In this document: piece by piece, positions 16,740 to 54,289 of the stretch
Position numbering within the stretch: position 1 is the stretch's first letter
Layout of the letters: each line of letters opens with the position of its first letter
Assembly: GCA_041666325.1 (NCBI GenBank)
Contig: JBAYHC010000003.1
Span: 95,102-159,101 of the forward strand
DNA: 64,000 bases
Direction of reading: 5' to 3'
From: Patescibacteria group bacterium
Lineage (GTDB): Bacteria > Patescibacteriota > UBA1384 > XYA2-FULL-43-10 > 1-14-0-10-43-13
Notes under the pieces: generated by a model
What the model was told of the DNA's origin: nothing
Seen by the model: the letters and a program-made list of their open reading frames with translations, nothing else
The model's database searches: none
Program-made: the position numbers and the translations under genes

Positions 16740-16813
16740 TGGCAGGGGTACGAGGAATCGAACCCCGATCGACGGTTTTGGAGACCGTTGTTTTACCGTT
16801 AAACTATACCCCT
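16740..16813 (-). tRNA. tRNA-Trp (anticodon CCA)
   Basis: Minus-strand sense AGGGGTATAGTTTAACGGTAAAACAACGGTCTCCAAAACCGTCGATCGGGGTTCGATTCCTCGTACCCCTGCCA. It has a 7-bp acceptor stem, a CUCCAAA anticodon loop and an encoded CCA, and is very close to E. coli tRNA-Trp. Confidence 0.9.
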
Positions 16814-16943
16814 AAAAAGTGTGAAAGGCCTGCCCGCAGTCGCTTCGCTCCAGGCGATGCAGGCGGGCGAAAGCATGAGAGTACTAAGCTGGCAGAATAC
16901 AGATCTAATAAAAGATCTGTCTCGGCTAACAGTGCTTTCACAC

Positions 16944-17111
16944 TTACTTTGTCTCTTTGTGTACAGTCTTCTTGCGATCGTGTGGGCAGTATTTTTCGAA
17001 CTCCAAACGAGCAATAACGCCCATTCCCTTGAGGCGCTTCTCTGTGTGGTAATTCCTGCTTTTGCAAACTGTGCATTCGAGTGTAACTAATTTTCTTGCT
17101 TCTTTGGCCAT
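16944..17111 (-). CDS. rpmG: 50S ribosomal protein L33
   Basis: MAKEARKLVTLECTVCKSRNYHTEKRLKGM...RLEFEKYCPHDRKKTVHKETK, 55 aa, with the C4 zinc-ribbon typical of L33. The rpmG / tRNA-Trp linkage is also typical. Confidence 0.85.
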   Translation of the reverse strand: MAKEARKLVTLECTVCKSRNYHTEKRLKGMGVIARLEFEKYCPHDRKKTVHKETK

Positions 17112-17221
17112 TTTGTCCTTAATTTGTCGTCCCGAAACCCGAAGATAGCCCCGGGCTCTTGATTCAGGATCTATTCTAATGACTGGATTCCAGATCAAGT
17201 CTGGAATGACAATATATATTA

Positions 17222-17296
17222 TGGAGCCATCTATCGGATTTGAACCGATAACCTACTGTTTACAAAACAGTTGCTCTACCGTTGAGCTAAGATGGC
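17222..17296 (-). tRNA. tRNA-Thr (anticodon TGT)
   Basis: GCCATCTTAGCTCAACGGTAGAGCAACTGTTTTGTAAACAGTAGGTTATCGGTTCAAATCCGATAGATGGCTCCA; acceptor GCCATCT/AGATGGC, anticodon loop UUUGUAA. Confidence 0.9.
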
Positions 17297-17560
17297 CTAC
17301 CCTATCAAGCCATCAATCAACCCTTGCTTTTTCTCTGACCGCCAACCCTTAATCTGCATTTCCCGCTTGCGAGCCTCCGATTTGCCTGGGAAGACGCCGG
17401 AAATGTAAACGATTTCCATTGGGCCCTAATCGATCACAAATTTTGCGCCTTTGCCACTATTGTGCAAGGATAATCTTCTGATCGGATCAGGCGAGATTCC
17501 AGTGTAATACCGCTTTGTCTTGATCGATTGAGCGATGTAGACTTTCCACTCCTCCGTGTT

Positions 17561-17680
17561 GGCCCTTCGACTTCACTCCGTTTCGCTCAGGGTCACTCGA
17601 CTTACGCAACTTAATACTATTGCCAAGACAAGTGGTTTACCGCGAGCGAGGCATTAACTTGTTAATGACGAGTCGAGTGG
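17561..17680 (-). repeat. structured tRNA 3'-trailer element, copy A (downstream of tRNA-Tyr)
   Basis: RNA sense: ...CCA-CUCGACUCG...GCUCGCUCGCGGUAAACCAC...AGUCGAGUGACCCUGAGCGAAACGGAGUGAAGUCGAAGGGCC. A 10-bp stem pairs CCACUCGACU (including the tRNA CCA) with AGUCGAGUGG about 100 nt downstream. A homologous copy follows tRNA-Thr(GGT). Confidence 0.5.
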
Positions 17681-17763
17681 TGCTGGGAGTAGGACTCGAA
17701 CCTACGAAGGCGTGAGCCGTCTGATTTACAGTCAGATGCGTTTGACCACTTCGCTATCCCAGC
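17678..17763 (-). tRNA. tRNA-Tyr (anticodon GTA)
   Basis: GCTGGGATAGCGAAGTGGTCAAACGCATCTGACTGTAAATCAGACGGCTCACGCCTTCGTAGGTTCGAGTCCTACTCCCAGCACCA; long variable arm, anticodon loop CUGUAAA, encoded CCA. Confidence 0.9.
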
Positions 17764-17772
17764 ATAATATTA

Positions 17773-17897
17773 AAGGCCCTTCGATTTCGCTTCGCTCCAC
17801 TCAGGGTCATTCGACTCTCGTGCTCAGCTAAACTATGTTTGCAAGAATGGTTCACCATGAGCGAGCCGTTGAGCGTTAGTGATGGCGAGTCGAATGG
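17773..17897 (-). repeat. structured tRNA 3'-trailer element, copy B (downstream of tRNA-Thr-GGT)
   Basis: Homologous to copy A, sharing the blocks GGCCCTTCGA, CAGGGTCA(C/T)TCGACT, TGGTT(T/C)ACC, GAGCGAG and GAGTCGA(G/A)TGG. The stem CCAUUCGACU/AGUCGAAUGG has a compensatory change at the position where A has C:G. Confidence 0.5.
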
Positions 17898-17970
17898 AGC
17901 CGTTGACGGGAATCAAACCCGTGACCTCACCCTTACCAAGGGTGTGCTCTGTCAACTGAGCTACAACGGC
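17895..17970 (-). tRNA. tRNA-Thr (anticodon GGT)
   Basis: GCCGTTGTAGCTCAGTTGACAGAGCACACCCTTGGTAAGGGTGAGGTCACGGGTTTGATTCCCGTCAACGGCTCCA; acceptor GCCGTTG/CAACGGC, anticodon loop UUGGUAA. Confidence 0.9.
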
Positions 17971-45047: not shown

Positions 45048-45187
45048 TATCACTTTCTTTTATTGCGCCGCCCCTCCTGCTCTTGGCGCTTGCCTTCCTC
45101 GATCCATTGCCTCACTTTCTCTCCGCCCTTTCGGCCAGCTTCTTTTACCGACATATTTCTCTCATCGTCTCCCTTTTTTCGAACCAT
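45048..45187 (-). CDS. KGG-repeat stress-induced small protein (45 aa), paralog 2
   Basis: GGAAGGAG RBS. Encodes MVRKKGDDERNMSVKEAGRKGGEKVRQ...; shares MSVKEAGRKGGE with the upstream paralog. A ~40-bp DNA direct repeat (45117 / 45318) underlies the duplication. Confidence 0.5.
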
Positions 45188-45188
45188 G

Positions 45189-45380
45189 TTATCTCCTTCC
45201 GCTCTCGGCGCGTTTCCCGGCTTCAATCAGCTCTTTCACCCTCTGGCCGCCCTTTGCGCCGCCCTTCCGACCGATCTCTTCATAGAAATCTCGACCGTGG
45301 GTCTTACTCGTTCGCTCTCCGCCCTTTCGGCCAGCTTCTTTTACCGACATTTCACCAGACATATTGTTTTCTCTTTTCAT
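45189..45380 (-). CDS. KGG-repeat stress-induced small protein (YciG/GsiB-like), paralog 1
   Basis: AAGGAG RBS. Encodes MKRENNMSGEMSVKEAGRKGGERTSK...GRKGGAKGG...; KGG motifs are typical of general-stress proteins. Confidence 0.6.
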   Translation of the reverse strand: MKRENNMSGEMSVKEAGRKGGERTSKTHGRDFYEEIGRKGGAKGGQRVKELIEAGKRAESGRR

Positions 45381-45493: not shown

Positions 45494-46996
45494 TCATCTC
45501 CGAGCGAACAGAATAGCGTTTGGCATGTTTCTACCTGGCCCGAGCTTGTACTCATCATCATAAATCAATGCAGTCGTCCCTCCTCCGTCTAGAGCCATTG
45601 CATTATCAACACCAAGAGAGGTCATGATCGCAGCCATATCGACAACCGTTACATCTGACCCAACTACCGCATACAGTGTCTCGCCCCGAAGACCTAGTGC
45701 TCCCCATTTTATTTTGTGGTTCCTCTGCTTCTCGTCCAAAGCGTCAACATTCAAAATATTCTGACCGTTCTCAACCAGCGCCGGTTTAGAATTAATCCCT
45801 GCATAAATCGGAAACCCCGAAGTTTTGAAATCGGTCCACCTTGTAAAATATCGAGGGTGACCGCCAGAATCGAAAGCAAGGAAATGATCATTCTCCCCCA
45901 GGCCGTTATTCTCATTGATCATTTTACCCAAGCGCGAATTGTAAACCTTCCAGAAAAAATAATTGATACTACTTTGGCATGAATCGTAGTCGGGCGGACA
46001 AAAATATGCACCGGTCAGACCAGCAAAGGCACCGTTTTCCCGAGCGAATTCACTCAACGCTTTTGCTGAACAATTATTGGCACACTCACTATTTTCGGCA
46101 GTGTCTGTAATCACCCGGATGCTGCCGCTAGCAAGATCAAATGTCATCATGTCCACACCAAACTCGCCGCGTGAAGTCCGAAGAGTCCCAGACCCATAAG
46201 AAGAATGTTCTCGTTGTTGTGTTCGTTGCTGGGCGGGCCTGGCAGTTGGGACATTATATGAAATGTCTAAGACCTTCTCCTTCCCGGCACTAATCTCCAC
46301 CTTTCTCTGAAATAGAATACTGCCAGACGATGAACCAATGATAGCCTTGTACTCACCGCCTTTGATGTTAACTGAATAATTGCCCTCATGATCGATATTA
46401 GTGTCCGCGACTTTTTCGTCGCCATTATAAATTTCAATTTTTCCCTCAACAACCGCTTTTGAGTTTATGGCAACGTGCCCCCTGATCGTTCCTCGCTGCC
46501 TGGCTTCTTCCTCCGCTGCTTCCCTGCGCCTCTCTTCCTCCTCTCTGGCAAGCCGCTCCGCCTCCTCTTTTGCTTTGATGCGGTTAAGTAAATCCGAATC
46601 TATCAGTGCAACGACAGCATTGGCCTCCGCATACTCTCCATTAATTATATGCGTCCTGACTTGTGCTTTCTGTTGTTCGAGATCTTCTACCGCAATCCCC
46701 CTGTCCTTGCCGCGCTTTATTGCGCCTGAGATATTCGCATATCTCCGGACAGAAAGGGAAGATCGCATCTCCGAAATTGTTATCTCTTCGTTTGATGGAC
46801 CATTCTGTTCTGCTTTGATAACTTCAACAAATGCAAACGGCAGAGAGACAAGCACTAGCAAGACCAGAAATATGGAAAGCATGTACCCTGGCCTCCTCCT
46901 TAATATCCTGTATCTAACCAATCTCATCATGGCTCCAACCAACTTAGCGAATAGCAACTGATTATATCGTCTTTGGTTTTGGCTAACGGAGAACAT
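45494..46996 (-). CDS. membrane-anchored phosphodiester glycosidase family protein (DUF2233/NAGPA-like)
   Basis: N-terminal TM, central coiled-coil and beta domain, and a C-terminal ...ALDGGGTTALIYDD... signature of the phosphodiester glycosidase family. Confidence 0.55.
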   Translation of the reverse strand: MFSVSQNQRRYNQLLFAKLVGAMMRLVRYRILRRRPGYMLSIFLVLLVLVSLPFAFVEVIKAEQNGPSNEEITISEMRSSLSVRRYANISGAIKRGKDRGIAVEDLEQQKAQVRTHIINGEYAEANAVVALIDSDLLNRIKAKEEAERLAREEEERRREAAEEEARQRGTIRGHVAINSKAVVEGKIEIYNGDEKVADTNIDHEGNYSVNIKGGEYKAIIGSSSGSILFQRKVEISAGKEKVLDISYNVPTARPAQQRTQQREHSSYGSGTLRTSRGEFGVDMMTFDLASGSIRVITDTAENSECANNCSAKALSEFARENGAFAGLTGAYFCPPDYDSCQSSINYFFWKVYNSRLGKMINENNGLGENDHFLAFDSGGHPRYFTRWTDFKTSGFPIYAGINSKPALVENGQNILNVDALDEKQRNHKIKWGALGLRGETLYAVVGSDVTVVDMAAIMTSLGVDNAMALDGGGTTALIYDDEYKLGPGRNMPNAILFARR

Positions 46997-47119
46997 TTCG
47001 CCTTTAGGGGGATAGAAATATATTAAAGGCCAGAATTATCACTCTGAAAGATATTTGTTAAAACAAAAAAGCCCCGGTGGTTCAGGCCGGGGCCCAGTCT
47101 TATGACTTAGAAACATTTC

Positions 47120-47920
47120 TTACATCGGCTTCGCAATGAACATGGTGTAGTACTGACCATGCACGCCTATTCCAACCTCCTGACCAAATGAGGCAAGAAT
47201 ATTAGCACGATGTCCAGCACTATTCATCCACGCTCTAACCAGCCCATCATCACTACCGAAATCACCCATCGCCAGATTGGCGCCAGCATTGGAATATTTG
47301 TAGCCAACACTGTTGAGGAACGACCAGTCTGTCGTTCCGTCTGGAGCGGTATGAGCAAAGTAGTTTTTCTCAGCCATATGCCTAGATTTGGCGCTTGCGG
47401 CCTGATTTAGACCCGTGTTTCCACGAACTTCAGACAGTCCGTTAGTGCGCCTCTCCGCATTGATAAGGCTGATTATATGGTCAACCTGATTGTTTGAGGA
47501 CACAGGAACAGAAGTCGGGACTGATGGCACGACAACAGCTGGAGCGGGAGTATCAACCGGCGCAGCAGGCGCAGCAGCTACTGGCGCAGGTGCCGGGGTT
47601 TCAAACCGCACCACAGGCTTCGACTGAACAGGCTTCACTGTTGCTTTCGAAGCAGGAATGACATACCGATAACGAACCTTCACCGCCTTGCCGTTACGGT
47701 AAACTATTTTCGTCCTCCAATACACCTGATTTGCCAGTACTCTTTTCGCAGATTTCTTCTTCGTTTTCTTAGCAGCAACCACGCTCTTCTTGGTGGACTT
47801 CTTAGAACTGCCGACACTTTTCGTTTGTGCACTTGCACTTTGTGTTGACAATGCAACGATCAAGAAAAGAAGCAGGACATATGAAAAAAGCTTTTTCCAC
47901 AAAGGGAAATTTCCTTTCAT
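47120..47920 (-). CDS. CAP/SCP-domain secreted protein (YkwD-like)
   Basis: Signal peptide, a K/S/A-rich spacer, and a C-terminal CAP domain (HIISLINAERRTNGL...HRANIL...YYTMFIAK). Confidence 0.75.
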   Translation of the reverse strand: MKGNFPLWKKLFSYVLLLFLIVALSTQSASAQTKSVGSSKKSTKKSVVAAKKTKKKSAKRVLANQVYWRTKIVYRNGKAVKVRYRYVIPASKATVKPVQSKPVVRFETPAPAPVAAAPAAPVDTPAPAVVVPSVPTSVPVSSNNQVDHIISLINAERRTNGLSEVRGNTGLNQAASAKSRHMAEKNYFAHTAPDGTTDWSFLNSVGYKYSNAGANLAMGDFGSDDGLVRAWMNSAGHRANILASFGQEVGIGVHGQYYTMFIAKPM

Positions 47921-48279
47921 ACTTTCTCCTTTAAAAAAATATACCTATCTCTTGTTCTTGCCGGCTTGACACACTTTGAGATGGTCATGTGTGATTATAA
48001 CACTCAATTGGAGCAATCAAGCGTTTTGCCCATCCTTCCCCCACTCTTTCAGTTGCAGATTATGTCTTTAGTAAATATCATCTCTAATAGACCATTATCA
48101 GCCTATGAATGCGACTAAAATCAATCTAGAAATGGCAAAATAATTATTTCTTCGCTCTGGTAAAAGCACCTAAAAAAACAAATATTTTTTCTTGTCCGTG
48201 CAATTCTTGCAACAACACACTGGGACCGCAATTCCAAGGACAATCTATTGACTCTTAGAGTCTGAGTGGTACTATCTAG

Positions 48280-48500
48280 TTACGCTTGGCTAGATAAAAC
48301 CGACACGTAGTGCCTGGGATACCAAGGGAAGGCCTGCTGGAGAGCCAAAAGCAGGCGGGTAATCCCTCTGGGTCCAAGGAGTGTCGGGCCTGCCTGAATT
48401 CGGGCGGGTAAAACAAAAAGGAGATTCGCCGCTCTGCACAGGGTGGCATGACGCCAGGTAGTCAAGCGGTTTCGCGGCGGGGGGACGTTGCCCCCGCCTT
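48280..48500 (+). ncRNA. GC-rich structured non-coding region upstream of the reverse transcriptase (candidate RT-associated ncRNA)
   Basis: No ORF of 60 aa or more. Nested hairpins: CCGACAC...GTGTCGG enclosing GGGAAGGCCUGC-(13 nt)-GCAGGCGGGUAAUCCC. Internal ~50-nt diverged direct repeats. Ends in the terminator hairpin GGCGGGGG-GACGTTG-CCCCCGCC plus T-run at 48466-48496, 30 nt before the RT ATG. Confidence 0.35.
48466..48496 (+). terminator. intrinsic terminator between the structured RNA and the RT start
   Basis: 8-bp GC stem GGCGGGGG/CCCCCGCC with a 7-nt loop, followed by TTCTTTTGTG. Confidence 0.55.
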
Positions 48501-48528
48501 CTTTTGTGAAAAGAGGGGGTGAGCGAAA

Positions 48529-49839
48529 ATGAACGGTTTGTCGCGGCGTCTCTTCTGGGGAGCGCGAGAACTTGAAGAACTATTGTGGATGTTTGACTTC
48601 AAGCTATTTCTTAAGCGACACAAGATTACTCTCGAGCGGAATATCGCCGGTATCCTCAAAGACGGTGTCGAGAACCACTACACCATCAGGCCCAAACCGA
48701 AGAAAAGCGGCGGATACCGCCTAACCTGGGAACCGGACCGGACGCTTTGGGCCTATCAGAAAATGATCTTGGAGATCATTTTGTATCGAGTCGCGCCATC
48801 ACCGGTTGCTCATGGCGGAGTACCCGGAAGAAGCATCTCGACGTGTTTGGATTCGATGCTTGACGCCAAATCAGTTTTTCATGTTGATTTGAAAAACGCC
48901 TTTGAGTCTGTCAGCTTCAGTCAAACTCTCGGACTTAGGACCGATCTTCGGTATGAGCCGCGCTCTGCCTGGGTCAGGGGCTTCGATGTTCGCGTTCCCG
49001 TGATGGAGGCGATCATCGCCCTGTGCGAGATAAAACGCATGACTGCGCACGGATGGTATGAGAACGCATTTTTACCGCAAGGCGCACCAACATCACAGCA
49101 CCTCTTTACGCTTGCACTCTATCCAGTGCATCGGCGGCTCGCCAGACTGACCAGGAACAGAACCGTTCAGTATGGAGATGATTTCTTCCTTCTGTCTCCT
49201 GAGCCATCGATCCCACCCAAGGTGCGGCGCGCCTTCGTTCGCACAATCGAACGTCACGGCCGACTTGAGATCAACTCAAGCAAAACCTACTATCTTACAG
49301 ACACCGGCACAGAGAACAATCCAGTGAGAGGACTTGGAGCAAATATCATTCGCGGCACAGCTCGTCTCCGTCCTCGCCATTTGCATCAACTGCGCATGGA
49401 CATGTACTGTGCAATCCAGGCCGGTGATGAAGCAAAAATTGCCGGCACCAGAGGTTTTGTTAGCCAGATCTATCGCGGTCAACCATGGCCGTCGCAGCTT
49501 GCCCTTATCAAGCCCGACGACTGGGACGACAGGGAACTGGGTGCGGCAAGACACTCAAAGCTGTCTCTGAGTGTCAACATCGGTGACATATTCAACTATC
49601 AGATTGTCTCGAAAACACCGCCCCCGGATATTTGCAAACAAATTTATCCACTCGATATCGAACGCCGAAAGAGAACTTTCGAAACAGACGGGGTTGCCCT
49701 AACTGCCGCAGACCAGGATTTTCTGGGACGATTGTCGGAAGGAGATGTTGAGCCAGAAGAACCTGAATTTGATTCTTTTGCCCCGCCTCTTTTTGACGCT
49801 TGGGGCGAACACATCGTTGGCGAGAACGGCTACTACTAG
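48529..49839 (+). CDS. reverse transcriptase, retron-type (stand-alone RT with ~150-aa C-terminal extension)
   Basis: Motif 1-2 YTIRPKPKKSGGYRLTWEP; motif A HVDLKNAFESV; motif B LPQGAPTSQHLF; motif C VQYGDDFFL; thumb xVRGLxxNI. No maturase/X or endonuclease domain. GAGGGGG RBS. Confidence 0.85.
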   Translation: MNGLSRRLFWGARELEELLWMFDFKLFLKRHKITLERNIAGILKDGVENHYTIRPKPKKSGGYRLTWEPDRTLWAYQKMILEIILYRVAPSPVAHGGVPGRSISTCLDSMLDAKSVFHVDLKNAFESVSFSQTLGLRTDLRYEPRSAWVRGFDVRVPVMEAIIALCEIKRMTAHGWYENAFLPQGAPTSQHLFTLALYPVHRRLARLTRNRTVQYGDDFFLLSPEPSIPPKVRRAFVRTIERHGRLEINSSKTYYLTDTGTENNPVRGLGANIIRGTARLRPRHLHQLRMDMYCAIQAGDEAKIAGTRGFVSQIYRGQPWPSQLALIKPDDWDDRELGAARHSKLSLSVNIGDIFNYQIVSKTPPPDICKQIYPLDIERRKRTFETDGVALTAADQDFLGRLSEGDVEPEEPEFDSFAPPLFDAWGEHIVGENGYY

Positions 49840-49959
49840 TCGACTCGCCATTTTTTTGCTCACAAGATCCCGGGCACGAAAATTTCCACACTAGCAAGGC
49901 ACGACATTACTTGTTAGAATAAACAATGATATTCTCTCATTGCTTTATAAGACAAGGAA

Positions 49960-51558
49960 TTGAACATGGAACCAGAGGTAAATCTCTCATTATCAGACAG
50001 AACATTTAGATTTCTTGAGCAATATTCGGCTTATGCCAATGCCCCCAGACGGGACATTCGCGGTGTCAGCGACAAGACTTTTCAATCTGCCCTGATCTAC
50101 GAAAAATTCAGAACGGCGCTCGAGTACCAAGAAGAGCATCTGATTTTTAAAAATGCTATTTCTCGCATTGTTAGACGAAAGTATGTGCTAGCGCCCTCCA
50201 TTTCTGCAACGAACTTATTCAATGACTTAGTCAGTGAACTCTCTTGGTCTAATTACCTCAACCCCGAAACGCTCCAAACAGAAGAACGCCACCGCATTAT
50301 CGCCATCCTTGAGCGCTACCTGATACTACTCCAAGAAATGAAGTCTGCACGGGCCAATAAGATGGAAGTACAAAAAATCGTCATCGAGTGGCTCGCCTGC
50401 GAAATCAATGAGGTTTTTACCCCTCTCCACGAAAACGATCTGCTCATCGACTATGCTTACGAGGCACTCAAAGACAATCTAAAGACTGAGGGCACAGCGA
50501 TATCACCAGAGGAAAACGAACTTCAGCTCAAAATTGCAATCCATACCCTGGTACTGAAACCCGATATTGCGTTGCTCCAATACTGGACAATCAAACGCCT
50601 TTATTCAAATTGGCAAACAATGACTGTGGAGGAAACAAAGAGTTTTGCACGCAGCTTTGACCCGTATTTTAACAAAGTCGAACAAGCAATCAACCACCCC
50701 CTGAAAACAAGATATTACCAGTACATCAAGCGTAACATCGCACCATTTATTCTCTTGCGCAGCCTTTTCATTGCAAAATCGCCCACTGCCACCCAATTCA
50801 AGGCTAATCCCTCCTCCCTCCGCAGCTCTCTCATGTCAGTCTACGACTCTCTCATCGAGGAGGGCCGCAAGAAGGTCTGGCGCGGAACCATCCGGGCTCT
50901 CATCTTCATCTGCATGACGAAACTCTCTCTGGCATTGATTATAGAAGCCCCAATCGATCGATACCTGGCCGGTGAAGTTGATTATCTATCGCTTACAATC
51001 AACCTGACCCTACCAATCCTACTCATGCTTTTCTCCGGCACCTTCGTCAAATCGCCCCCAGCAAAAAACAGACTTGTCGTATCCGAGGCAATCTCGAACC
51101 TAATGATAAAAGACAAGATCAGCGACAAACCATTCCATCTAACCAAGTCTCGCGAAAGCTCGTCAGAAAATGCATTTAACACTGTCTACTCTTTGTTTAC
51201 GGTCGTCATACTGGTTGGAGTAATTTGGTTTCTGCGCTATCTTCATTTTAACCTGGTGAGCATTGTATTGTTTTTCCTCTTTGTCTCAGCAGTATCCTTC
51301 TTCTCATTCCGCATCCGCAACATTGCACTGGAGCTAGCCATGAAACGATCCCGCGACGACGCACTAACCTCCACGCTAGAATTCATCTTTTTGCCCTTTA
51401 TCAGAATCGGAAAAGCCATCTCCGAAAGGCTTGCCAGAGCTAATCCGTTCATCCTTGCTCTCGACTTTTTGATTGAGGCCCCGCTTAAATCTATCATAAA
51501 AATTATGAACTCGTGGTGGCGTTTCCTCAGTTCAAAAAAAGAAGAGCTCGAGGTCTAA
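49960..51558 (+). CDS. membrane protein, 532 aa (soluble N-terminal ~300 aa plus 4 C-terminal TM helices); candidate RT-system partner
   Basis: No recognisable domain. AT-rich compared with the RT. TM helices at roughly 300-330, 345-365, 400-425 and 430-450. Confidence 0.55.
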   Translation: MNMEPEVNLSLSDRTFRFLEQYSAYANAPRRDIRGVSDKTFQSALIYEKFRTALEYQEEHLIFKNAISRIVRRKYVLAPSISATNLFNDLVSELSWSNYLNPETLQTEERHRIIAILERYLILLQEMKSARANKMEVQKIVIEWLACEINEVFTPLHENDLLIDYAYEALKDNLKTEGTAISPEENELQLKIAIHTLVLKPDIALLQYWTIKRLYSNWQTMTVEETKSFARSFDPYFNKVEQAINHPLKTRYYQYIKRNIAPFILLRSLFIAKSPTATQFKANPSSLRSSLMSVYDSLIEEGRKKVWRGTIRALIFICMTKLSLALIIEAPIDRYLAGEVDYLSLTINLTLPILLMLFSGTFVKSPPAKNRLVVSEAISNLMIKDKISDKPFHLTKSRESSSENAFNTVYSLFTVVILVGVIWFLRYLHFNLVSIVLFFLFVSAVSFFSFRIRNIALELAMKRSRDDALTSTLEFIFLPFIRIGKAISERLARANPFILALDFLIEAPLKSIIKIMNSWWRFLSSKKEELEV

Positions 51559-51572
51559 CTTTCAGGTAGCCC

Positions 51573-51869
51573 TTATCTCAGCTTTTGCAGTTCAGCAAAG
51601 CCCCTTCTTTGATTTTCAATCGCAAGTCTAATACACTCCTTTGGATCATAGCCCAAGTTGCCGGAACAACGAATAGAGCTAAAAATGATATTGCCTAGTT
51701 CTTTTTGCAGTTCGGCATCAGTGTGAACACTACCATCCTTCGAGGCATTTCGCTCCCACCGGCAGATATCACCAAAAATTTTCCCAAGCCGAACGATGAT
51801 CTGCGGCAGCGTCATCTTCTCGTCTTCCCAAATCTCTCGCCCGGTTTTTAATAGTTTTCCTATGGTCAT
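51573..51869 (-). CDS. MazG-like nucleotide pyrophosphohydrolase domain protein
   Basis: 98 aa, MTIGKLLKTGREIWEDEKMTLPQIIVRLGKIFGDICRWERN..., an all-alpha EExx(E/D) MazG-type fold. GGAGG RBS. Confidence 0.55.
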   Translation of the reverse strand: MTIGKLLKTGREIWEDEKMTLPQIIVRLGKIFGDICRWERNASKDGSVHTDAELQKELGNIIFSSIRCSGNLGYDPKECIRLAIENQRRGFAELQKLR

Positions 51870-51953
51870 TTTTCCTCCTGAAACTACACTTATTTGTTGA
51901 CATAAAACAATAAGATTGTTACAACTAACTGCCAGAGTCCGAAAGGGGGACAA

Positions 51954-52487
51954 ATGAATTCAGACAAAGGCAGGGATCTTCTGGTACAGGCCCGCCAATC
52001 ATTCTTGCGAGGACAGATTACACCAGAATCGGCGAACAGAATCATCGACGATTTAATTCTGGTCAACGCCCATTCTCCGCAGAAAGAAATCGTGTTGTGG
52101 CTCGATTCTATCGGCGGCGACAGTGAATCAGCCTTCAAGATTTGCAACACGATAAAAGCCATATCATCGCCAGTGACCGCCAAGGTTATTGGCCAAGCTA
52201 ACTCGTCTGCTTTTCTTGTTCTGCAGTATTGCAATAAACGAGAAGCCGGGCAACTTGCCACTCTTATGCTTCACACTATTTCTCGGAAAAATGTTGAACT
52301 TAAGGATATTCGCGAGAGAGGGCTGAGGGCGCTCGAAGAAACAGAGCGACTACAAGAAATTTATGAACAAATTATCTCCGCAAGATCCGGTCAAGCGAAG
52401 GAAGAAGTTGCTCGCTTATGTATGGAAGGCAGGATAATGTCTGCCACCGAAGCTCTCTCGCTTGGCTTCTTGGATGAGATCTACTAA
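51954..52487 (+). CDS. ClpP-family (S14) serine peptidase-like protein
   Basis: IVLWLDSIGGDSESAFKICNTIKAISSPVTAKVIGQANSSAFLVLQYC matches the ClpP core (I.L.INSPGG...G.A.S.G..L). 177 aa, shorter than canonical ClpP. GGGGGA RBS. Confidence 0.55.
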   Translation: MNSDKGRDLLVQARQSFLRGQITPESANRIIDDLILVNAHSPQKEIVLWLDSIGGDSESAFKICNTIKAISSPVTAKVIGQANSSAFLVLQYCNKREAGQLATLMLHTISRKNVELKDIRERGLRALEETERLQEIYEQIISARSGQAKEEVARLCMEGRIMSATEALSLGFLDEIY

Positions 52488-52519
52488 TTGTCCGATACGG
52501 CCGCCCTGGCCGTATTTTC

Positions 52520-54289
52520 CTACCAACTTCCACCGCCCCCACCCCCAAATCCTCCACCCGAACCACCACCAGAAAAACCACTTCCTCCACTCGCTGCCGA
52601 AGATGGTGCAGCAGCAAACGCACCCTTGGCCGAGGCCGAAAAATCGTTCATACTATTTGTGAAAATAATCGGATTGAATGCTCTCATGCTCGGGTCAGAG
52701 TACCATTGAGGCGGTTGCTTATAAATGTCCTCAAACTGCTTTGCCCAAGCCTTCTCGACACCCAAAGCCATGGCAAATGGAAGCAACTTTTCAAAACGTT
52801 CGGGATTTTTCTCAGGTGCGTTATGAAATTTGATTCTATCCTTCTCTGCTACCTCAAGATAACTCTTCAAGCCCAAGATGTATTCTTTTGCCTCAACGCC
52901 CTTGGCTGTCTTTGCCGGCATGAAGTAACCGATAATTCCTATAGCCAAAGCGGAGATAGCAAAGCTGGCCAGATACAATGTCCCGAGATCAATCAAAATT
53001 ATTCCCAAAAGTAAGACAAAGAAAGCGATACCCAGATAAATCCACCTCGTGGTTTGCGGGCTCCGGGAAAAATACCCTTTGTCGACAGTGCTTTTGTAGG
53101 CCGCGCTAACAATTGCCTGCCAATCCTTGTGAAACTTATATTTTAGATCGGAGAGCAAGACACTCTCTTTGCCGCCCTCAAACAAACTATCAAAAAACTT
53201 TTTCTCGACGCTACTCTTCAGATCACTGCCATCTTTTAGTTTGAGAAACTTGTAGTCAGTCGACTTCAATAGCTTGCCGTCTTTCTCAACTCGAGAAATC
53301 TTAACATAACCGGCAACGGCAAGTCCGATGAGAACGGCAGAAATATCCTTTGAGTCCGCTCTCTCATCCACAAGAATGCCGATCTCTGCTGGCGTTAGCC
53401 CTGGCGGAGCGTCGTATTGAGGTACGATTGTGTCTCGTCCCTTCGCATCCCGTCCAAATTTTCTCCAACGATAGAGCATAAAAAGTGAGACAATAATCGG
53501 CAAAGCCAAGACTACATTATCCTTCGTTGTCTCACCCGCTTTTTGCCAAAATGACGGCTCGGCAACGACGTGCTTGGGAAATCCTGCCACCACAGTGAAC
53601 GCCTGTCCTGGCGCTAATTCCCCGTTAGAAAAATCGATATGGTCAGTCATCTGGTCGTCGCTATACCCGACCATCCAACCGCCGCATTTATCTGTGCTAC
53701 CGAATTCCCCCTTGAAACAAGTCGCGCTGATACTGCTCTTGTTAATTTTCTTGGGCAGAATGATGCTGGCCTCAGCTTTTTCAATTGTTACATCCCACTT
53801 ATCCCCCACAACATTCCAGTAAATCTCATCTTGGTCATCAGAGTAATTAACGGCTCGATTAACGGTGTACTCGACCGTGTAAACCTGACGACCACTGAAA
53901 ACTCTACTCTCGTCGCCGATCATTATCTTGCGATAAGACCCATCATTAGAAACTTGAAATGGCAGCGCATCACCGTTCTGATTGCTCACCCGGATATCGC
54001 TAATCCTCAAGTTGTAGCTTCCACCCCTTGCCTTGTATCTATACGGCAGAGTTCGATAGATTCCATGCCTCCTGTTTTCGGCAAAATCGTAGTCGATCCG
54101 CTCCTTAACTCGAAGCGACGAATCAGCACTGAGCACGATGTCCGATCTAATACTCCTAACCTTCTCCTGAAAATAATACGGTACATCTTCGGCGCGAGCA
54201 CCTCGTGGAGCCAGTAGAACAAGAAAAAATACCCCACAAACAAGGACTGCCAAGATCCTAATCGCATTAGCACGAAACGTTGCATGCAT
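52520..54289 (-). CDS. DUF2207 domain membrane protein with Gly-rich C-terminus
   Basis: Signal/TM, a DUF2207-like extracellular domain (DVPYYFQEKVRSI...LRVKERIDYDF), 2 TM helices and a C-terminal GGSGFSGGGSGGGFGGGGGGSW tail. Confidence 0.7.
   Translation of the reverse strand: MHATFRANAIRILAVLVCGVFFLVLLAPRGARAEDVPYYFQEKVRSIRSDIVLSADSSLRVKERIDYDFAENRRHGIYRTLPYRYKARGGSYNLRISDIRVSNQNGDALPFQVSNDGSYRKIMIGDESRVFSGRQVYTVEYTVNRAVNYSDDQDEIYWNVVGDKWDVTIEKAEASIILPKKINKSSISATCFKGEFGSTDKCGGWMVGYSDDQMTDHIDFSNGELAPGQAFTVVAGFPKHVVAEPSFWQKAGETTKDNVVLALPIIVSLFMLYRWRKFGRDAKGRDTIVPQYDAPPGLTPAEIGILVDERADSKDISAVLIGLAVAGYVKISRVEKDGKLLKSTDYKFLKLKDGSDLKSSVEKKFFDSLFEGGKESVLLSDLKYKFHKDWQAIVSAAYKSTVDKGYFSRSPQTTRWIYLGIAFFVLLLGIILIDLGTLYLASFAISALAIGIIGYFMPAKTAKGVEAKEYILGLKSYLEVAEKDRIKFHNAPEKNPERFEKLLPFAMALGVEKAWAKQFEDIYKQPPQWYSDPSMRAFNPIIFTNSMNDFSASAKGAFAAAPSSAASGGSGFSGGGSGGGFGGGGGGSW

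What the first reader, a model, noticed from the sequence alone, without database searches (positions are those of the whole stretch)
48238..52487. Retron-type reverse transcriptase locus with a structured upstream RNA, a large membrane protein, and MazG-like and ClpP-like neighbours
The gene at 48529..49839 carries every RT core motif: RT1-2 (IRPKPKKSGGYRL), A (VDLKNAF), B (LPQGAPTSQ) and C (YGDD). It lacks group II intron maturase or endonuclease domains and has a ~150-aa C-terminal extension of unknown function. Directly upstream is a ~220-nt GC-rich region with no ORF of 60 aa or more and dense secondary structure; this is where retrons and several defense-associated RT (DRT/UG) systems place their template ncRNA. 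A 532-aa multi-TM protein follows the RT. The locus is bracketed by a small MazG-like pyrophosphohydrolase and a short ClpP-like peptidase, gene types that recur in phage-defense islands. The combination (retron-like RT, ncRNA, membrane protein, no recognisable nuclease/ATPase/TIR effector) does not match a retron type I can name from memory. It is the strongest candidate here for an undescribed retroelement/defense module.
Basis: partly seen in the sequence, partly recalled or inferred. Interest (0 to 1): 0.8.

Follow-up and report, generated by a model that had tools for sequence, protein, structure and literature searches.

The report
Stand-alone retron-like element in Patescibacteria
This is a compact two-part genetic element, a reverse transcriptase gene preceded by its own folded non-coding RNA, that looks like a bacterial retron but has no toxin/effector gene and belongs to a small, undescribed family found so far only in ultra-small CPR bacteria; the neighbouring membrane, MazG-like and ClpP-like genes are not part of it.

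Summary
The RT gene (48529..49839, +) and the structured upstream RNA are real. By sequence (PADLOC, PDB) and by predicted fold, the RT sits with retron RTs. It matches no defined retron type and lacks the retron NAxxH and VTG signatures. The upstream RNA (about 48283..48506) has its own sigma-70-like promoter. It has the retron hallmark: a terminal a1/a2 helix with two opposing G residues (G48293, G48458). It also has a conserved 8-9 bp hairpin, a variable 5' domain, a 42-58 nt 3' domain and a terminal hairpin. The same architecture lies directly upstream of related RTs (28-65% identity) in 10 other distinct loci. Both helices covary strongly there. Gene neighbours differ in every locus apart from L001, the closest relative, which shares the window's gene order. 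The 532-aa membrane protein is a widespread Patescibacteria gene that also occurs without an RT. Best reading: an effector-less, retron-type RT-ncRNA pair of CPR bacteria. msDNA synthesis is inferred, not shown. Most relatives carry YxDN instead of YxDD in motif C. I rate it a new variant of a known kind, of moderate-to-high interest.

The parts
48248..48275 (+). Sigma-70-like promoter of the ncRNA: -35 TTGACT (48248-48253), 16-nt spacer with TG extension, -10 TACTAT (48270-48275). Predicted start is a few nt before a1.
   Evidence: Consensus scan. The -35 region is conserved in L001. By my reading of the sequences, similar -35/-10 hexamers lie 5-8 nt upstream of a1 in most related loci. This is direct reading, not an experiment.
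48283..48292 (+). a1: 5' arm of the closing helix (CGCUUGGCUA), pairs with a2.
   Evidence: Pairs 10/10 with 48459-48468 in the MFE, mean pair probability 0.96, when the 5' end is set at the predicted start. The helix covaries across 10 distinct sequences and on a blind MAFFT alignment.
48293..48293 (+). G immediately 3' of a1: candidate branching (priming) G.
   Evidence: The pattern a1-UA|G is invariant in all 11 loci. It corresponds to one of the 'two opposing G residues' of retron msr/msd consensus structures (PMC7736814). Branching itself was not tested.
48294..48387 (+). Domain 1: long irregular stem-loop (outer stem 48300-48306 with 48381-48387). Highly variable in length across the family (32-178 nt). 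Tentatively part of msr.
   Evidence: Independent MFE folds of 11 loci. Lengths. 77% identity to L001, against 100% for a1, a2 and the hairpin.
48388..48409 (+). Conserved hairpin (8-9 bp, AAUU-type loop, conserved U.G wobble). Candidate RT-recognition element.
   Evidence: The only element recovered by blind MAFFT+RNAalifold. 6 of 8 pairs show double changes and 98.8% of cells are paired. The U.G wobble in 9/10 sequences fixes the functional strand as +.
48410..48457 (+). Domain 3: 48-49 nt region with an inner hairpin (48428-48447), directly 5' of the opposing G and a2. Candidate template (msd).
   Evidence: Its length is tightly constrained across the family (42-58 nt). It forms a hairpin in most folds. 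The template role is inferred from retron geometry only.
48458..48468 (+). Opposing G (48458) and a2, the 3' arm of the closing helix (UAGUCAAGCG, 48459-48468).
   Evidence: The pattern G|UA-a2 is invariant in 11 loci. Covariation.
48476..48506 (+). Terminal GC-rich hairpin (48476-48498) followed here by a T-run. It is terminator-like in the window. A strong hairpin at this place is present in all related loci.
   Evidence: Terminator scan. Tail folds of 11 loci. The U-run is not conserved in all loci, so a structural or regulatory role is equally possible (inference).
48529..49839 (+). Retron-like reverse transcriptase, 436 aa. RT core and thumb are residues 1-~330 (YGDD at 215-218). An acidic, predicted-disordered tail covers ~330-436.
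   Evidence: Pfam RVT_1. PADLOC retron RT profiles, best 1.1e-24. PDB Ec86 RT 5e-6. AlphaFold pLDDT >85 for most of residues 1-330 and <50 for 336-436. Foldseek top 16 hits are retron RTs.

Best explanation
The locus is a self-contained two-component retron-type element. A promoter drives a ~190-225-nt msr/msd-like ncRNA (48283..~48506), and a retron-like RT gene (48529..49839) follows on the same strand. It belongs to a small family in which all three named members come from CPR/Patescibacteria bacteria. The element always occurs alone among unrelated housekeeping genes, without a conserved effector gene.

Proposed mechanism (inferred by analogy with retrons). The transcript folds so that its 5' end (a1) pairs with a2, which brings G48293 opposite G48458. 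The RT binds the conserved hairpin (48388-48409), and perhaps the terminal hairpin. It primes on the 2'-OH of G48293 and copies domain 3 (48410-48457) into a short (~40-50 nt) branched msDNA. The output function is unknown. The most likely options are phage sensing with a partner encoded elsewhere, or a role for the clade-specific acidic C-terminal tail.

The membrane protein, the MazG-like gene and the ClpP-like gene are ordinary neighbours and not parts of the element.
For: RT class. All top PADLOC matches are retron RT profiles: RT_outgroup 1.1e-24, RT_other, RT_XIII and RT_II-A. The only NCBIfam matches are retron families. The best PDB sequence match is Ec86 RT. The predicted structure (pLDDT 76, core >85) has retron RTs (Eco7, Ec86, Eco2, Ec78, type I-A, Ec83, Eco8) as its 16 best Foldseek hits, ahead of DRT9, group II, G2L4, DGR and DRT2.

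ncRNA. The region is GC-rich, has no Rfam match, and has a promoter and a terminator-like hairpin. The same architecture lies directly upstream of RT relatives in 10 other distinct loci. The a1/a2 helix and the conserved hairpin give 98% paired cells, and 12 of 16 pairs have changes on both sides. Slid controls give 28-51% and 0 of 500 shuffles reach the observed values (on trimmed constructs). On a blind MAFFT alignment the figure is 90% paired, against 30-48% when slid. The opposing Gs are invariant in 11/11 loci, as in retron consensus structures (PMC7736814). With the 5' end set at the predicted start, a1/a2 is in the MFE in 10 of 11 loci. Between the window and L001, a1, a2 and the hairpin are 100% identical, while domains 1 and 3 are 73-77%.

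Stand-alone nature. Neighbours differ in every locus. The membrane protein is widespread and is found without an RT.

Host range. The named members are a Patescibacteria group bacterium, Ca. Berkelbacteria and Ca. Woykebacteria.
Against: No msDNA, transcript ends or RT activity have been observed. Priming at G48293 and the template assignment are inference.

The window RT lacks the retron NAxxH motif (it has TCLDSM) and has VRG instead of VTG. It is far below the cutoff of any typed retron model: NCBIfam retron_St85 scores 67.8 bits against a cutoff of 235.

The order of RNA elements is atypical. The long variable stem is 5' and the shorter stem is 3', the reverse of canonical msr/msd as described in PMC7736814.

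No effector is present, unlike nearly all classified retrons. Most relatives have YxDN in motif C, which questions whether DNA synthesis is the conserved activity of the family.

With 30 nt of upstream flank included, a1/a2 is lost from the window's MFE. The family is small and the ncRNA set holds only 10-11 distinct sequences.
Confidence: 0.65

Rival explanations
1. A two-component RT-ncRNA system that works like DRT2 or DRT9. The cDNA product itself (a concatemer, a homopolymer or another product) would be the effector, rather than a retron msDNA that holds a toxin in check.
For: Only two components are conserved and no effector gene is found. DRT9 and DRT2 RTs are among the structural matches, at ranks 17 and 43.
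Against: Retron RTs match clearly better than DRT RTs. The RNA has the retron a1/a2 helix with opposing Gs. The concatemer test fails: a stop-free frame across repeated copies of the core exists only in the window. It is absent from L001 and the nine other loci, and core lengths are not multiples of three. No conserved U-tract was seen.
Confidence: 0.12
2. A domesticated RNA-protein complex with a non-defence, possibly non-polymerising, cellular role in CPR bacteria. The RT-like protein would mainly bind the conserved RNA.
For: Most relatives have Asn in place of the second catalytic Asp of motif C, yet keep the RNA architecture. The element always lies among housekeeping genes, with no mobile-element or defence genes nearby. 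No flanking direct repeats were found.
Against: The window clade keeps the full YGDD/YFDD motif and the motif A Asp. The family is rare and patchy: 3 proteins at E<1e-30 among 1.84 billion representatives, and none found in 185,579 species-representative genomes with the patterns used. That does not fit a core cellular function. One copy looks decayed.
Confidence: 0.12
3. One reading: the RT, the ncRNA, the 532-aa membrane protein, the MazG-like gene and the ClpP-like gene together form one defence module.
For: The genes are adjacent in the window. The same order is seen in the closest relative, L001.
Against: The neighbours are absent from all other RT loci. The membrane protein has 108 homologous clusters and occurs without an RT. 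It is more conserved than the RT between the window and L001 (78% against 64-65% identity). None of the three has a PADLOC match. The MazG assignment is statistically weak.
Confidence: 0.03
4. The upstream region is an unrelated small RNA or simply the leader/attenuator of the RT mRNA, with no templating role.
For: There is a terminator-like hairpin between the RNA and the RT, and possible pairing of the U-run with the RBS.
Against: It travels with the RT into unrelated genomic contexts. It keeps a long-range closing helix with opposing Gs by compensatory change. It has no Rfam match. A pure leader would not need the retron-specific a1-G / G-a2 geometry.
Confidence: 0.04
5. A group II intron RT or a diversity-generating retroelement (DGRs are the commonest RT class in CPR).
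For: DGRs make up about 80% of RTs in CPR (PMC8632793). The window RT has an SQ ending in motif B (LPQGAPTSQ).
Against: There is no Rfam group II intron match. There is no maturase or endonuclease domain. No template/variable repeat copy of the upstream region exists anywhere in the 64-kb window. DGR and group II RTs rank below retron RTs structurally. Relatives have the retron-type QGAPTSP.
Confidence: 0.01

Closest known systems
Canonical retrons (for example Retron-Eco1/Ec86, type II-A; classification of Mestre et al. 2020, PMC7736814)
   Same: An RT of the retron/retron-like kind lies immediately downstream of, and on the same strand as, a structured ncRNA. The ends of that RNA pair (a1/a2) and present two opposing G residues. 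There are internal hairpins. The RT fold is closest to solved retron RTs.
   Different: There is no effector gene. NAxxH is absent and VTG is VRG in the window RT. The motif is YGDD rather than YADD. The size order of the RNA domains is reversed, with the long variable stem 5' and a 42-58 nt region 3'. There is an extra conserved terminal hairpin after a2. The host is CPR. The element scores far below every type-specific model.
Orphan retrons such as the Retron-Eco5 (Ec107) branch
   Same: The RT plus ncRNA occur without an associated effector gene. Mestre et al. note that such systems may use unknown trans effectors or have another function (PMC7736814).
   Different: The PADLOC RT_Ec107-like profile is only a weak match (2.8e-17, below several other retron profiles). 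The hosts and the RNA layout differ. Here the absence of an effector applies to the whole family rather than being a secondary loss in one branch.
Type XIII retron RTs (PADLOC RT_XIII) and PADLOC 'RT_outgroup' / 'RT_other'
   Same: These are the best-scoring profiles for the window RT and its relatives.
   Different: Scores are E=1e-24 to 1e-50, compared with 3e-118 for a probable true member (P0004). P0004 has two RT domains and no comparable upstream RNA.
DRT2 and DRT9 (UG-class defence RTs with an ncRNA and no separate effector)
   Same: The layout is the same two-component RT + ncRNA arrangement.
   Different: The RT lineage is different. The RNA has retron geometry. No conserved concatemer ORF was found.

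Membership tests
Retron | RT belongs to the retron/retron-like RT lineage | tested here: met
   All top PADLOC hits are retron RT profiles. The NCBIfam hits are retron families only. The best PDB sequence hit is Ec86 RT. The Foldseek top 16 are retron RTs. No formal phylogeny was made.
Retron | Assignable to one of the defined types I-XIII | tested here: not met
   The best PADLOC E-value is 1.1e-24, against ~1e-118 for a probable true type XIII member. NCBIfam retron_St85_RT scores 67.8 bits against a cutoff of 235.
Retron | Region X NAxxH motif between RT2 and RT3 | tested here: not met
   The window has S-T-C-L-D-S-M where relatives have TNAxPH. L002 keeps only the His. The Ec86 alignment agrees. 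The motif is present in most family relatives.
Retron | Region Y VTG triplet in RT7 | tested here: not met
   VRG in the window aligns to VTG of Ec86. Relatives have L-P-G or L-L-G. Only the G is conserved.
Retron | Catalytic YxDD (usually YADD) and motif A Asp | tested here: met
   YGDD at residues 215-218 and D120 in motif A. Most relatives instead have YxDN.
Retron | Contiguous ncRNA gene on the same strand with terminal inverted repeats a1/a2 that pair | tested here: met
   48283-48292 pairs with 48459-48468. In the a1/a2 helix, 6 of 8 pairs have changes on both sides across 10 sequences and 97.5% of cells are paired. On a blind alignment the figure is 88.5%.
Retron | Two opposing G residues at the inner end of a1/a2 (branching G) | tested here: met
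   a1-UA|G and G|UA-a2 are invariant in 11/11 loci. The feature is described in PMC7736814. The chemistry of branching was not tested.
Retron | msr with 1-3 short hairpins 5' and a long msd stem-loop 3' | tested here: inconclusive
   Three internal domains are present, but the long variable stem is 5' and the 3' domain is only 42-58 nt. Canonical layout as described in PMC7736814.
Retron | Production of msDNA (branched RNA-DNA) | not testable with these tools
   This needs cDNA or msDNA detection.
Retron | Associated effector gene or fused effector domain (tripartite system) | tested here: not met
   No neighbour is conserved across the related loci. The C-terminal tail has no Pfam or PADLOC match and is predicted disordered.
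Group II intron | Intron RNA domains flanking the RT; maturase (X) and/or endonuclease domain | tested here: not met
   There are no Rfam hits at E<=1 over 46000-54000 and none at gathering score in the window. Pfam finds only RVT_1.
Diversity-generating retroelement | Template repeat near the RT with a diverged variable-repeat copy in a target gene | tested here: not met
   blastn of 48101-48560 against the whole window finds only itself and short chance matches. The adenine-masked pattern search gave only self-matches.
DRT2-like RT-ncRNA system | Template whose concatenated cDNA gives a continuous ORF | tested here: not met
   A stop-free concatemer frame occurs only in the window and in none of the 10 other loci. 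Template boundaries are unknown, so the test is approximate.

The most novel reading that the evidence does not exclude
A CPR-restricted lineage of minimal retron-like ribonucleoproteins (a ~300-aa RT plus a ~200-nt RNA, with no effector). In it the retron RNA geometry is kept, but most members have replaced the second catalytic Asp (YxDN). This would imply a mode of action different from the known 'msDNA guards a toxin' logic. Examples would be a product-as-effector system, limited priming, or an RNA-only function. The window's YGDD clade with its added acidic tail would be a derived or ancestral active form.
Probability: 0.3. Interest if true: 0.8.

Novelty: new variant of a known kind. Interest (0 to 1): 0.6.

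Why it matters
Retrons are understood as tripartite toxin-antitoxin-like defence systems, and they are used as in-cell DNA factories for genome editing. This family keeps the retron RNA geometry but has no effector. It has a very small RT, an unusual RNA layout and, in most members, an altered catalytic motif. It lives in CPR bacteria, whose RT repertoire is described as about 80% DGRs.

If the element makes msDNA, it would be among the most compact retron-type units known, which makes it a candidate editing tool. It would also pose a clean question: what does a retron do without an effector?

If it does not make DNA, it would be a new use of an RT scaffold.

Either way, the comparative RNA model defined here gives precise mutations and constructs to test: a1/a2, G48293, the conserved hairpin and the 42-58-nt domain.

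Tried and rejected
(1) Rfam, by E-value on 46000-54000 and by gathering score on the whole window: no family matched the upstream RNA.

(2) DGR hypothesis: no variable-repeat copy in the window.

(3) Scan of metagenome contigs with the hairpin pattern GGGCCTGNNNGAATTCNNNCGGGTA: 17 hits, none with hairpin complementarity or a downstream RT, so all are chance.

(4) Genome-contig scan with RT peptide patterns: 174 candidates, none confirmed.

(5) Genome-contig scan with a family-wide hairpin + GTAG pattern: 12 hits, all chance. Both collections are now exhausted. The family is rare, or the patterns were too narrow.

(6) A profile search with the 16-sequence alignment in the word-indexed protein database returned only 4 proteins and added little.

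(7) DRT2-like concatemer ORF: rejected as chance.

(8) Blind MAFFT+RNAalifold on full-length RNAs recovered only the conserved hairpin. The variable domain 1 misaligns two or three rows. The a1/a2 helix was therefore tested on trimmed constructs with artificial AAA linkers and then on the blind alignment with a named structure.

(9) A simple descriptor scan (a1/a2 + opposing Gs + hairpin at the right distance) found the true site in every RT locus. It also gave about 20 one-mismatch background hits in 789 kb, so the descriptor alone is not specific.

(10) Flanking direct or inverted repeats around the element: only short chance matches and no target-site duplication.

(11) Viral contigs: two distant YADN RTs (28-29% identity). 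The one inspected (L046) lacks this RNA. L045 was not examined.

(12) Literature searches for retrons in CPR lineages, for YADN, and for effector-less retrons in metagenomes found no description of this family. The library does not cover all journals.

(13) No covariance model was built, because only sequences already held could have been searched.


Full report
1. What is in the sequence

The ORF 48529..49839 (+, 436 aa) is present. It is a reverse transcriptase: Pfam RVT_1, E=1.1e-16, with no other domain.

The source is a Patescibacteria MAG. The identical protein is annotated by NCBI as 'MAG: reverse transcriptase domain-containing protein [Patescibacteria group bacterium]' and sits on a 687-kb contig.

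The upstream region stands out in composition. The 224 nt at 48283-48506 are 60% GC, against 37% for the intergenic DNA just before them and 46.7% for the window. A sigma-70-like promoter (TTGACT, 16 nt, TACTAT; 48248-48275) precedes the region. A GC-rich hairpin with a T-run (48476-48498) follows it, then a purine-rich RBS and the RT start codon. The region folds better than shuffled controls (z=-3.9). It matches no Rfam family, even at E<=1.

2. What kind of RT

All of the best PADLOC matches are retron RT profiles: RT_outgroup 1.1e-24, RT_other, RT_XIII, RT_II-A, RT_III-A and so on. NCBIfam finds only retron families, all far below their cutoffs; retron_St85_RT scores 67.8 bits against a cutoff of 235. 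The only solved structures found by sequence are retron Ec86 RT entries (E about 5e-6).

An AlphaFold model built on a 16-sequence alignment is confident for residues 1-~330 and has pLDDT below 50 for 336-436. Its 16 best Foldseek matches in the PDB are retron RTs: Eco7, Ec86, Eco2, Ec78, type I-A, Ec83 and Eco8. DRT9, group II intron, G2L4, DGR and DRT2 RTs follow only after these.

So the RT is retron-like, but it is not a member of any typed retron group. Two textbook retron signatures are also missing from the window protein. The NAxxH motif is replaced by TCLDSM, and VTG is VRG. Both features are as defined in PMC7736814.

3. How rare it is, and its relatives

An exhaustive HMMER search of 1.84 billion representative proteins found only three with E<=1e-30. 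These are the protein itself, P0003 (47%), and P0004, a two-RT-domain protein that is a strong RT_XIII match. The word-indexed search added P0002 (64%).

A second tier of ~300-350-aa proteins (28-35% identity, P0005-P0037 and others) aligns end to end with residues 1-~330 of the window RT. They share a distinctive thumb region (GN...PLRLPGVNII, LRxxLYxAG...GIxGxxxQIYG). The window clade's extra ~105 C-terminal residues are acidic (23 D+E against 10 K+R) and predicted disordered.

Named members of the wider family are Ca. Berkelbacteria and Ca. Woykebacteria, both CPR.

4. The RNA travels with the RT

I fetched the contigs for nine relatives. In each of 10 distinct loci besides the window (L001, L002, L021, L022, L023, L025, L026, L027, L029, L030), the 250-450 nt upstream of the RT is non-coding and folds into the same plan.

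The plan has six parts:
- a closing helix of 8-12 bp whose 5' arm ends in UA followed by G, and whose 3' arm is preceded by G and starts with UA;
- a long stem-loop that varies widely in length (32-178 nt);
- a conserved 8-9-bp hairpin with an AAUU-type loop;
- a region of tightly constrained length (42-58 nt) that usually forms a hairpin;
- after the 3' arm, a strong terminal hairpin;
- the RBS and the RT.

The closing helix has a different sequence in almost every locus but stays complementary. Examples are CGCUUGGCUA/UAGUCAAGCG in the window, CUACGACUA/UAGUUGUAG in L021, GUCACGACUA/UAGUCGUGAC in L026 and GGGGGUAGUUA/UAACUACCUCC in L027.

I counted pairs on constructs trimmed to the two helices. 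These are real sequence joined by artificial AAA linkers. 98% of cells pair, and 12 of 16 pairs have changes on both sides. No shuffle of 500 reaches the observed values, and sliding the partners drops pairing to 28-51%. On an untouched MAFFT alignment of the full RNAs, where two or three rows are misaligned, the same two helices give 90% pairing against 30-48% when slid.

A U.G wobble conserved in 9 of 10 sequences shows that the RT strand is the functional one. With the 5' end placed where the promoters predict, a1/a2 is in the MFE in 10 of 11 loci, with probability 0.86-0.99. With 30 nt of extra upstream flank it is lost in four loci, including the window. Thermodynamics alone is therefore not decisive; the covariation is.

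Between the window and its closest relative, a1, a2 and the hairpin are 100% identical, while the two variable domains are 73-77% identical.

5. Comparison with retron RNAs

Retron msr/msd transcripts are defined by terminal inverted repeats that hybridise, by internal msr and msd hairpins, and by two opposing G residues at the inner end of the a1/a2 stem. One of these Gs is the branching G that primes reverse transcription (PMC7736814).

The a1/a2 helix and the opposing Gs are met here in all 11 loci. In the window the Gs are G48293 and G48458.

The layout differs from the canonical one. The long, variable stem is on the 5' side, where msr hairpins normally sit. The 3' domain, where the long msd stem normally sits, is short.

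My assignment is as follows: msr is domain 1 plus the conserved hairpin, msd is 48410-48457, and the product is a ~40-50-nt msDNA. This follows from retron geometry and is inference.

6. The neighbours are not part of it

Around the related RTs the flanking genes differ in every case:
- SAM synthetase, a sortase fragment and an M23 peptidase (L002);
- ComEC and GrpE (L021);
- an Rce1-like protease (L022);
- enolase and phosphoglycerate mutase (L023);
- glutamate dehydrogenase (L025);
- ribosomal proteins S9/L13/L17 (L026, L029);
- CysRS and RecR (L027);
- RbfA (L029);
- a methyltransferase (L031).

Only L001, the 64-65% relative, repeats the window's order: CAP-domain protein, RT, membrane protein. 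Its membrane protein is 78% identical, more conserved than the RT.

The 532-aa protein has 108 homologous clusters of about 530 aa; every named one is labelled Patescibacteria or simply 'bacterium'. The 55% homologue P0159 lies between rsmH and a response-regulator gene with no RT nearby.

The 'MazG-like' ORF has only marginal similarity to MazG. The ClpP-like gene is a genuine but divergent ClpP homologue in which the Asp of the triad is not aligned. None of the three has a PADLOC match.

The surrounding genes (Lon, a NAGPA-domain protein, a CAP-domain protein and DUF2207) are ordinary. No flanking repeats mark an insertion.

7. Alternatives tested

- Group II intron: no intron RNA and no maturase or endonuclease domain.
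- DGR: no variable repeat in the window.
- DRT2-like concatemer gene: the window's 186-nt core happens to be stop-free on the antisense strand. This is not so in L001 or in any other locus, so it is chance in GC-rich sequence.
- An unrelated sRNA or leader: hard to reconcile with the conserved retron geometry and with co-migration alongside the RT.

8. Most likely mechanism and its uncertainty

I propose a stand-alone retron-type RT-ncRNA pair.

Shown: the RT class, the pairing of the RNA with the RT family, the two covarying helices, the invariant opposing Gs, and the absence of a conserved neighbour.

Inferred: transcription from the mapped promoter, RT binding to the conserved hairpin, priming at G48293, copying of 48410-48457, and any biological output.

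Two observations caution against assuming the standard retron logic. There is no effector. And most relatives carry Y-x-D-N in motif C, a change that replaces one of the catalytic Asp residues. The window clade keeps YGDD/YFDD and adds an acidic tail with a conserved DSF-PPL-DAWG segment. One member of the clade (L002/L003) has an in-frame TAA in the RT and a weakened a1/a2, and may be decaying.

9. Novelty

Searches of the held literature found no description of retrons or retron-like RT-ncRNA pairs in CPR lineages. Reviews state that about 80% of CPR RTs are DGRs (PMC8632793). Orphan retrons are known, for example the Ec107 branch.

I rate this a new variant of a known kind. It has retron-type geometry and RT lineage, but it is an effector-less, CPR-restricted family with atypical RNA order, missing RT signatures and a widespread YxDN motif.

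Limits: the RNA set holds only 10-11 distinct sequences; there is no phylogeny against the reference retron set; the collection scans found no further members; and there are no experimental data.

Noticed in passing
Relatives P0005-P0037 and others (alignment A4); loci L021-L030: Most RTs of the wider family have Y-x-D-N instead of Y-x-D-D in motif C (second catalytic Asp changed to Asn), yet keep the same upstream RNA architecture. The window clade and P0010 keep DD. No paper in the held library mentions YADN in an RT.
   Followed up: partly
L002:2931-4256 (also L003): The RT of the 44-47% relative is interrupted by an in-frame TAA (L002:3795-3797). The downstream 152-aa ORF aligns to window RT residues 290-327. 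Its a1/a2 helix has a mismatch and is absent from the MFE. It may be a decaying copy or a split gene.
   Followed up: partly
P0004 (L028:5001-7160), P0018, P0021, P0039: These proteins carry two retron-type RT domains in tandem (719-1381 aa). P0004 matches RT_XIII at 3e-118 and has no comparable upstream RNA.
   Followed up: no
window 48280..48465 (-): The ncRNA core is exactly 186 nt and is stop-free in one antisense frame (a 61-aa mechanical ORF). A head-to-tail concatemer would be an endless ORF. This is not conserved in L001 or any other locus, so it is judged chance.
   Followed up: yes
window 51954..52487 (+): This short (177 aa), divergent ClpP homologue aligns at the Ser and His of the catalytic triad. 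The Asp position reads MEGR where ClpP has TERD. It scores far below NCBIfam ClpP cutoffs.
   Followed up: partly
window 49516..49836 (RT residues 330-436); L001 and L002 equivalents: The clade-specific acidic, predicted-disordered RT tail contains a short segment conserved between the window and L001 (DSFAPPLFDAWG / DSFSPPLYDAWG). This may be a protein-interaction motif.
   Followed up: no
L045 and L046 (IMG/VR contigs); L046:2902-3933: Two viral contigs encode distant (28-29% identity) retron-like RTs. The L046 RT carries YADN. L046 has only ~150 nt upstream with a terminator and lacks the CPR-type RNA. L045 was not examined.
   Followed up: partly
L026:724-2763 and L029:17-2705: In two unrelated loci the RT-ncRNA unit lies next to the rplQ-rplM-rpsI (L17-L13-S9) cluster. 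This may be coincidence or a preferred site.
   Followed up: no
window 45050..45380 (-): Two small tandem ORFs (58 and 63 aa) share a KEAGRKGGE motif, reminiscent of KGG-repeat stress proteins.
   Followed up: no
window 16740..17970 (-): A cluster of four tRNA genes (Trp-CCA, Thr-TGT, Tyr-GTA, Thr-GGT). These are the only Rfam gathering-score hits in the window.
   Followed up: no
window 48499..48519: The U-run after the terminal hairpin (CUUCUUUU) can pair with the RT ribosome-binding site (AAAGAGG) in the predicted fold of the tail. This suggests possible translational control of the RT.
   Followed up: no
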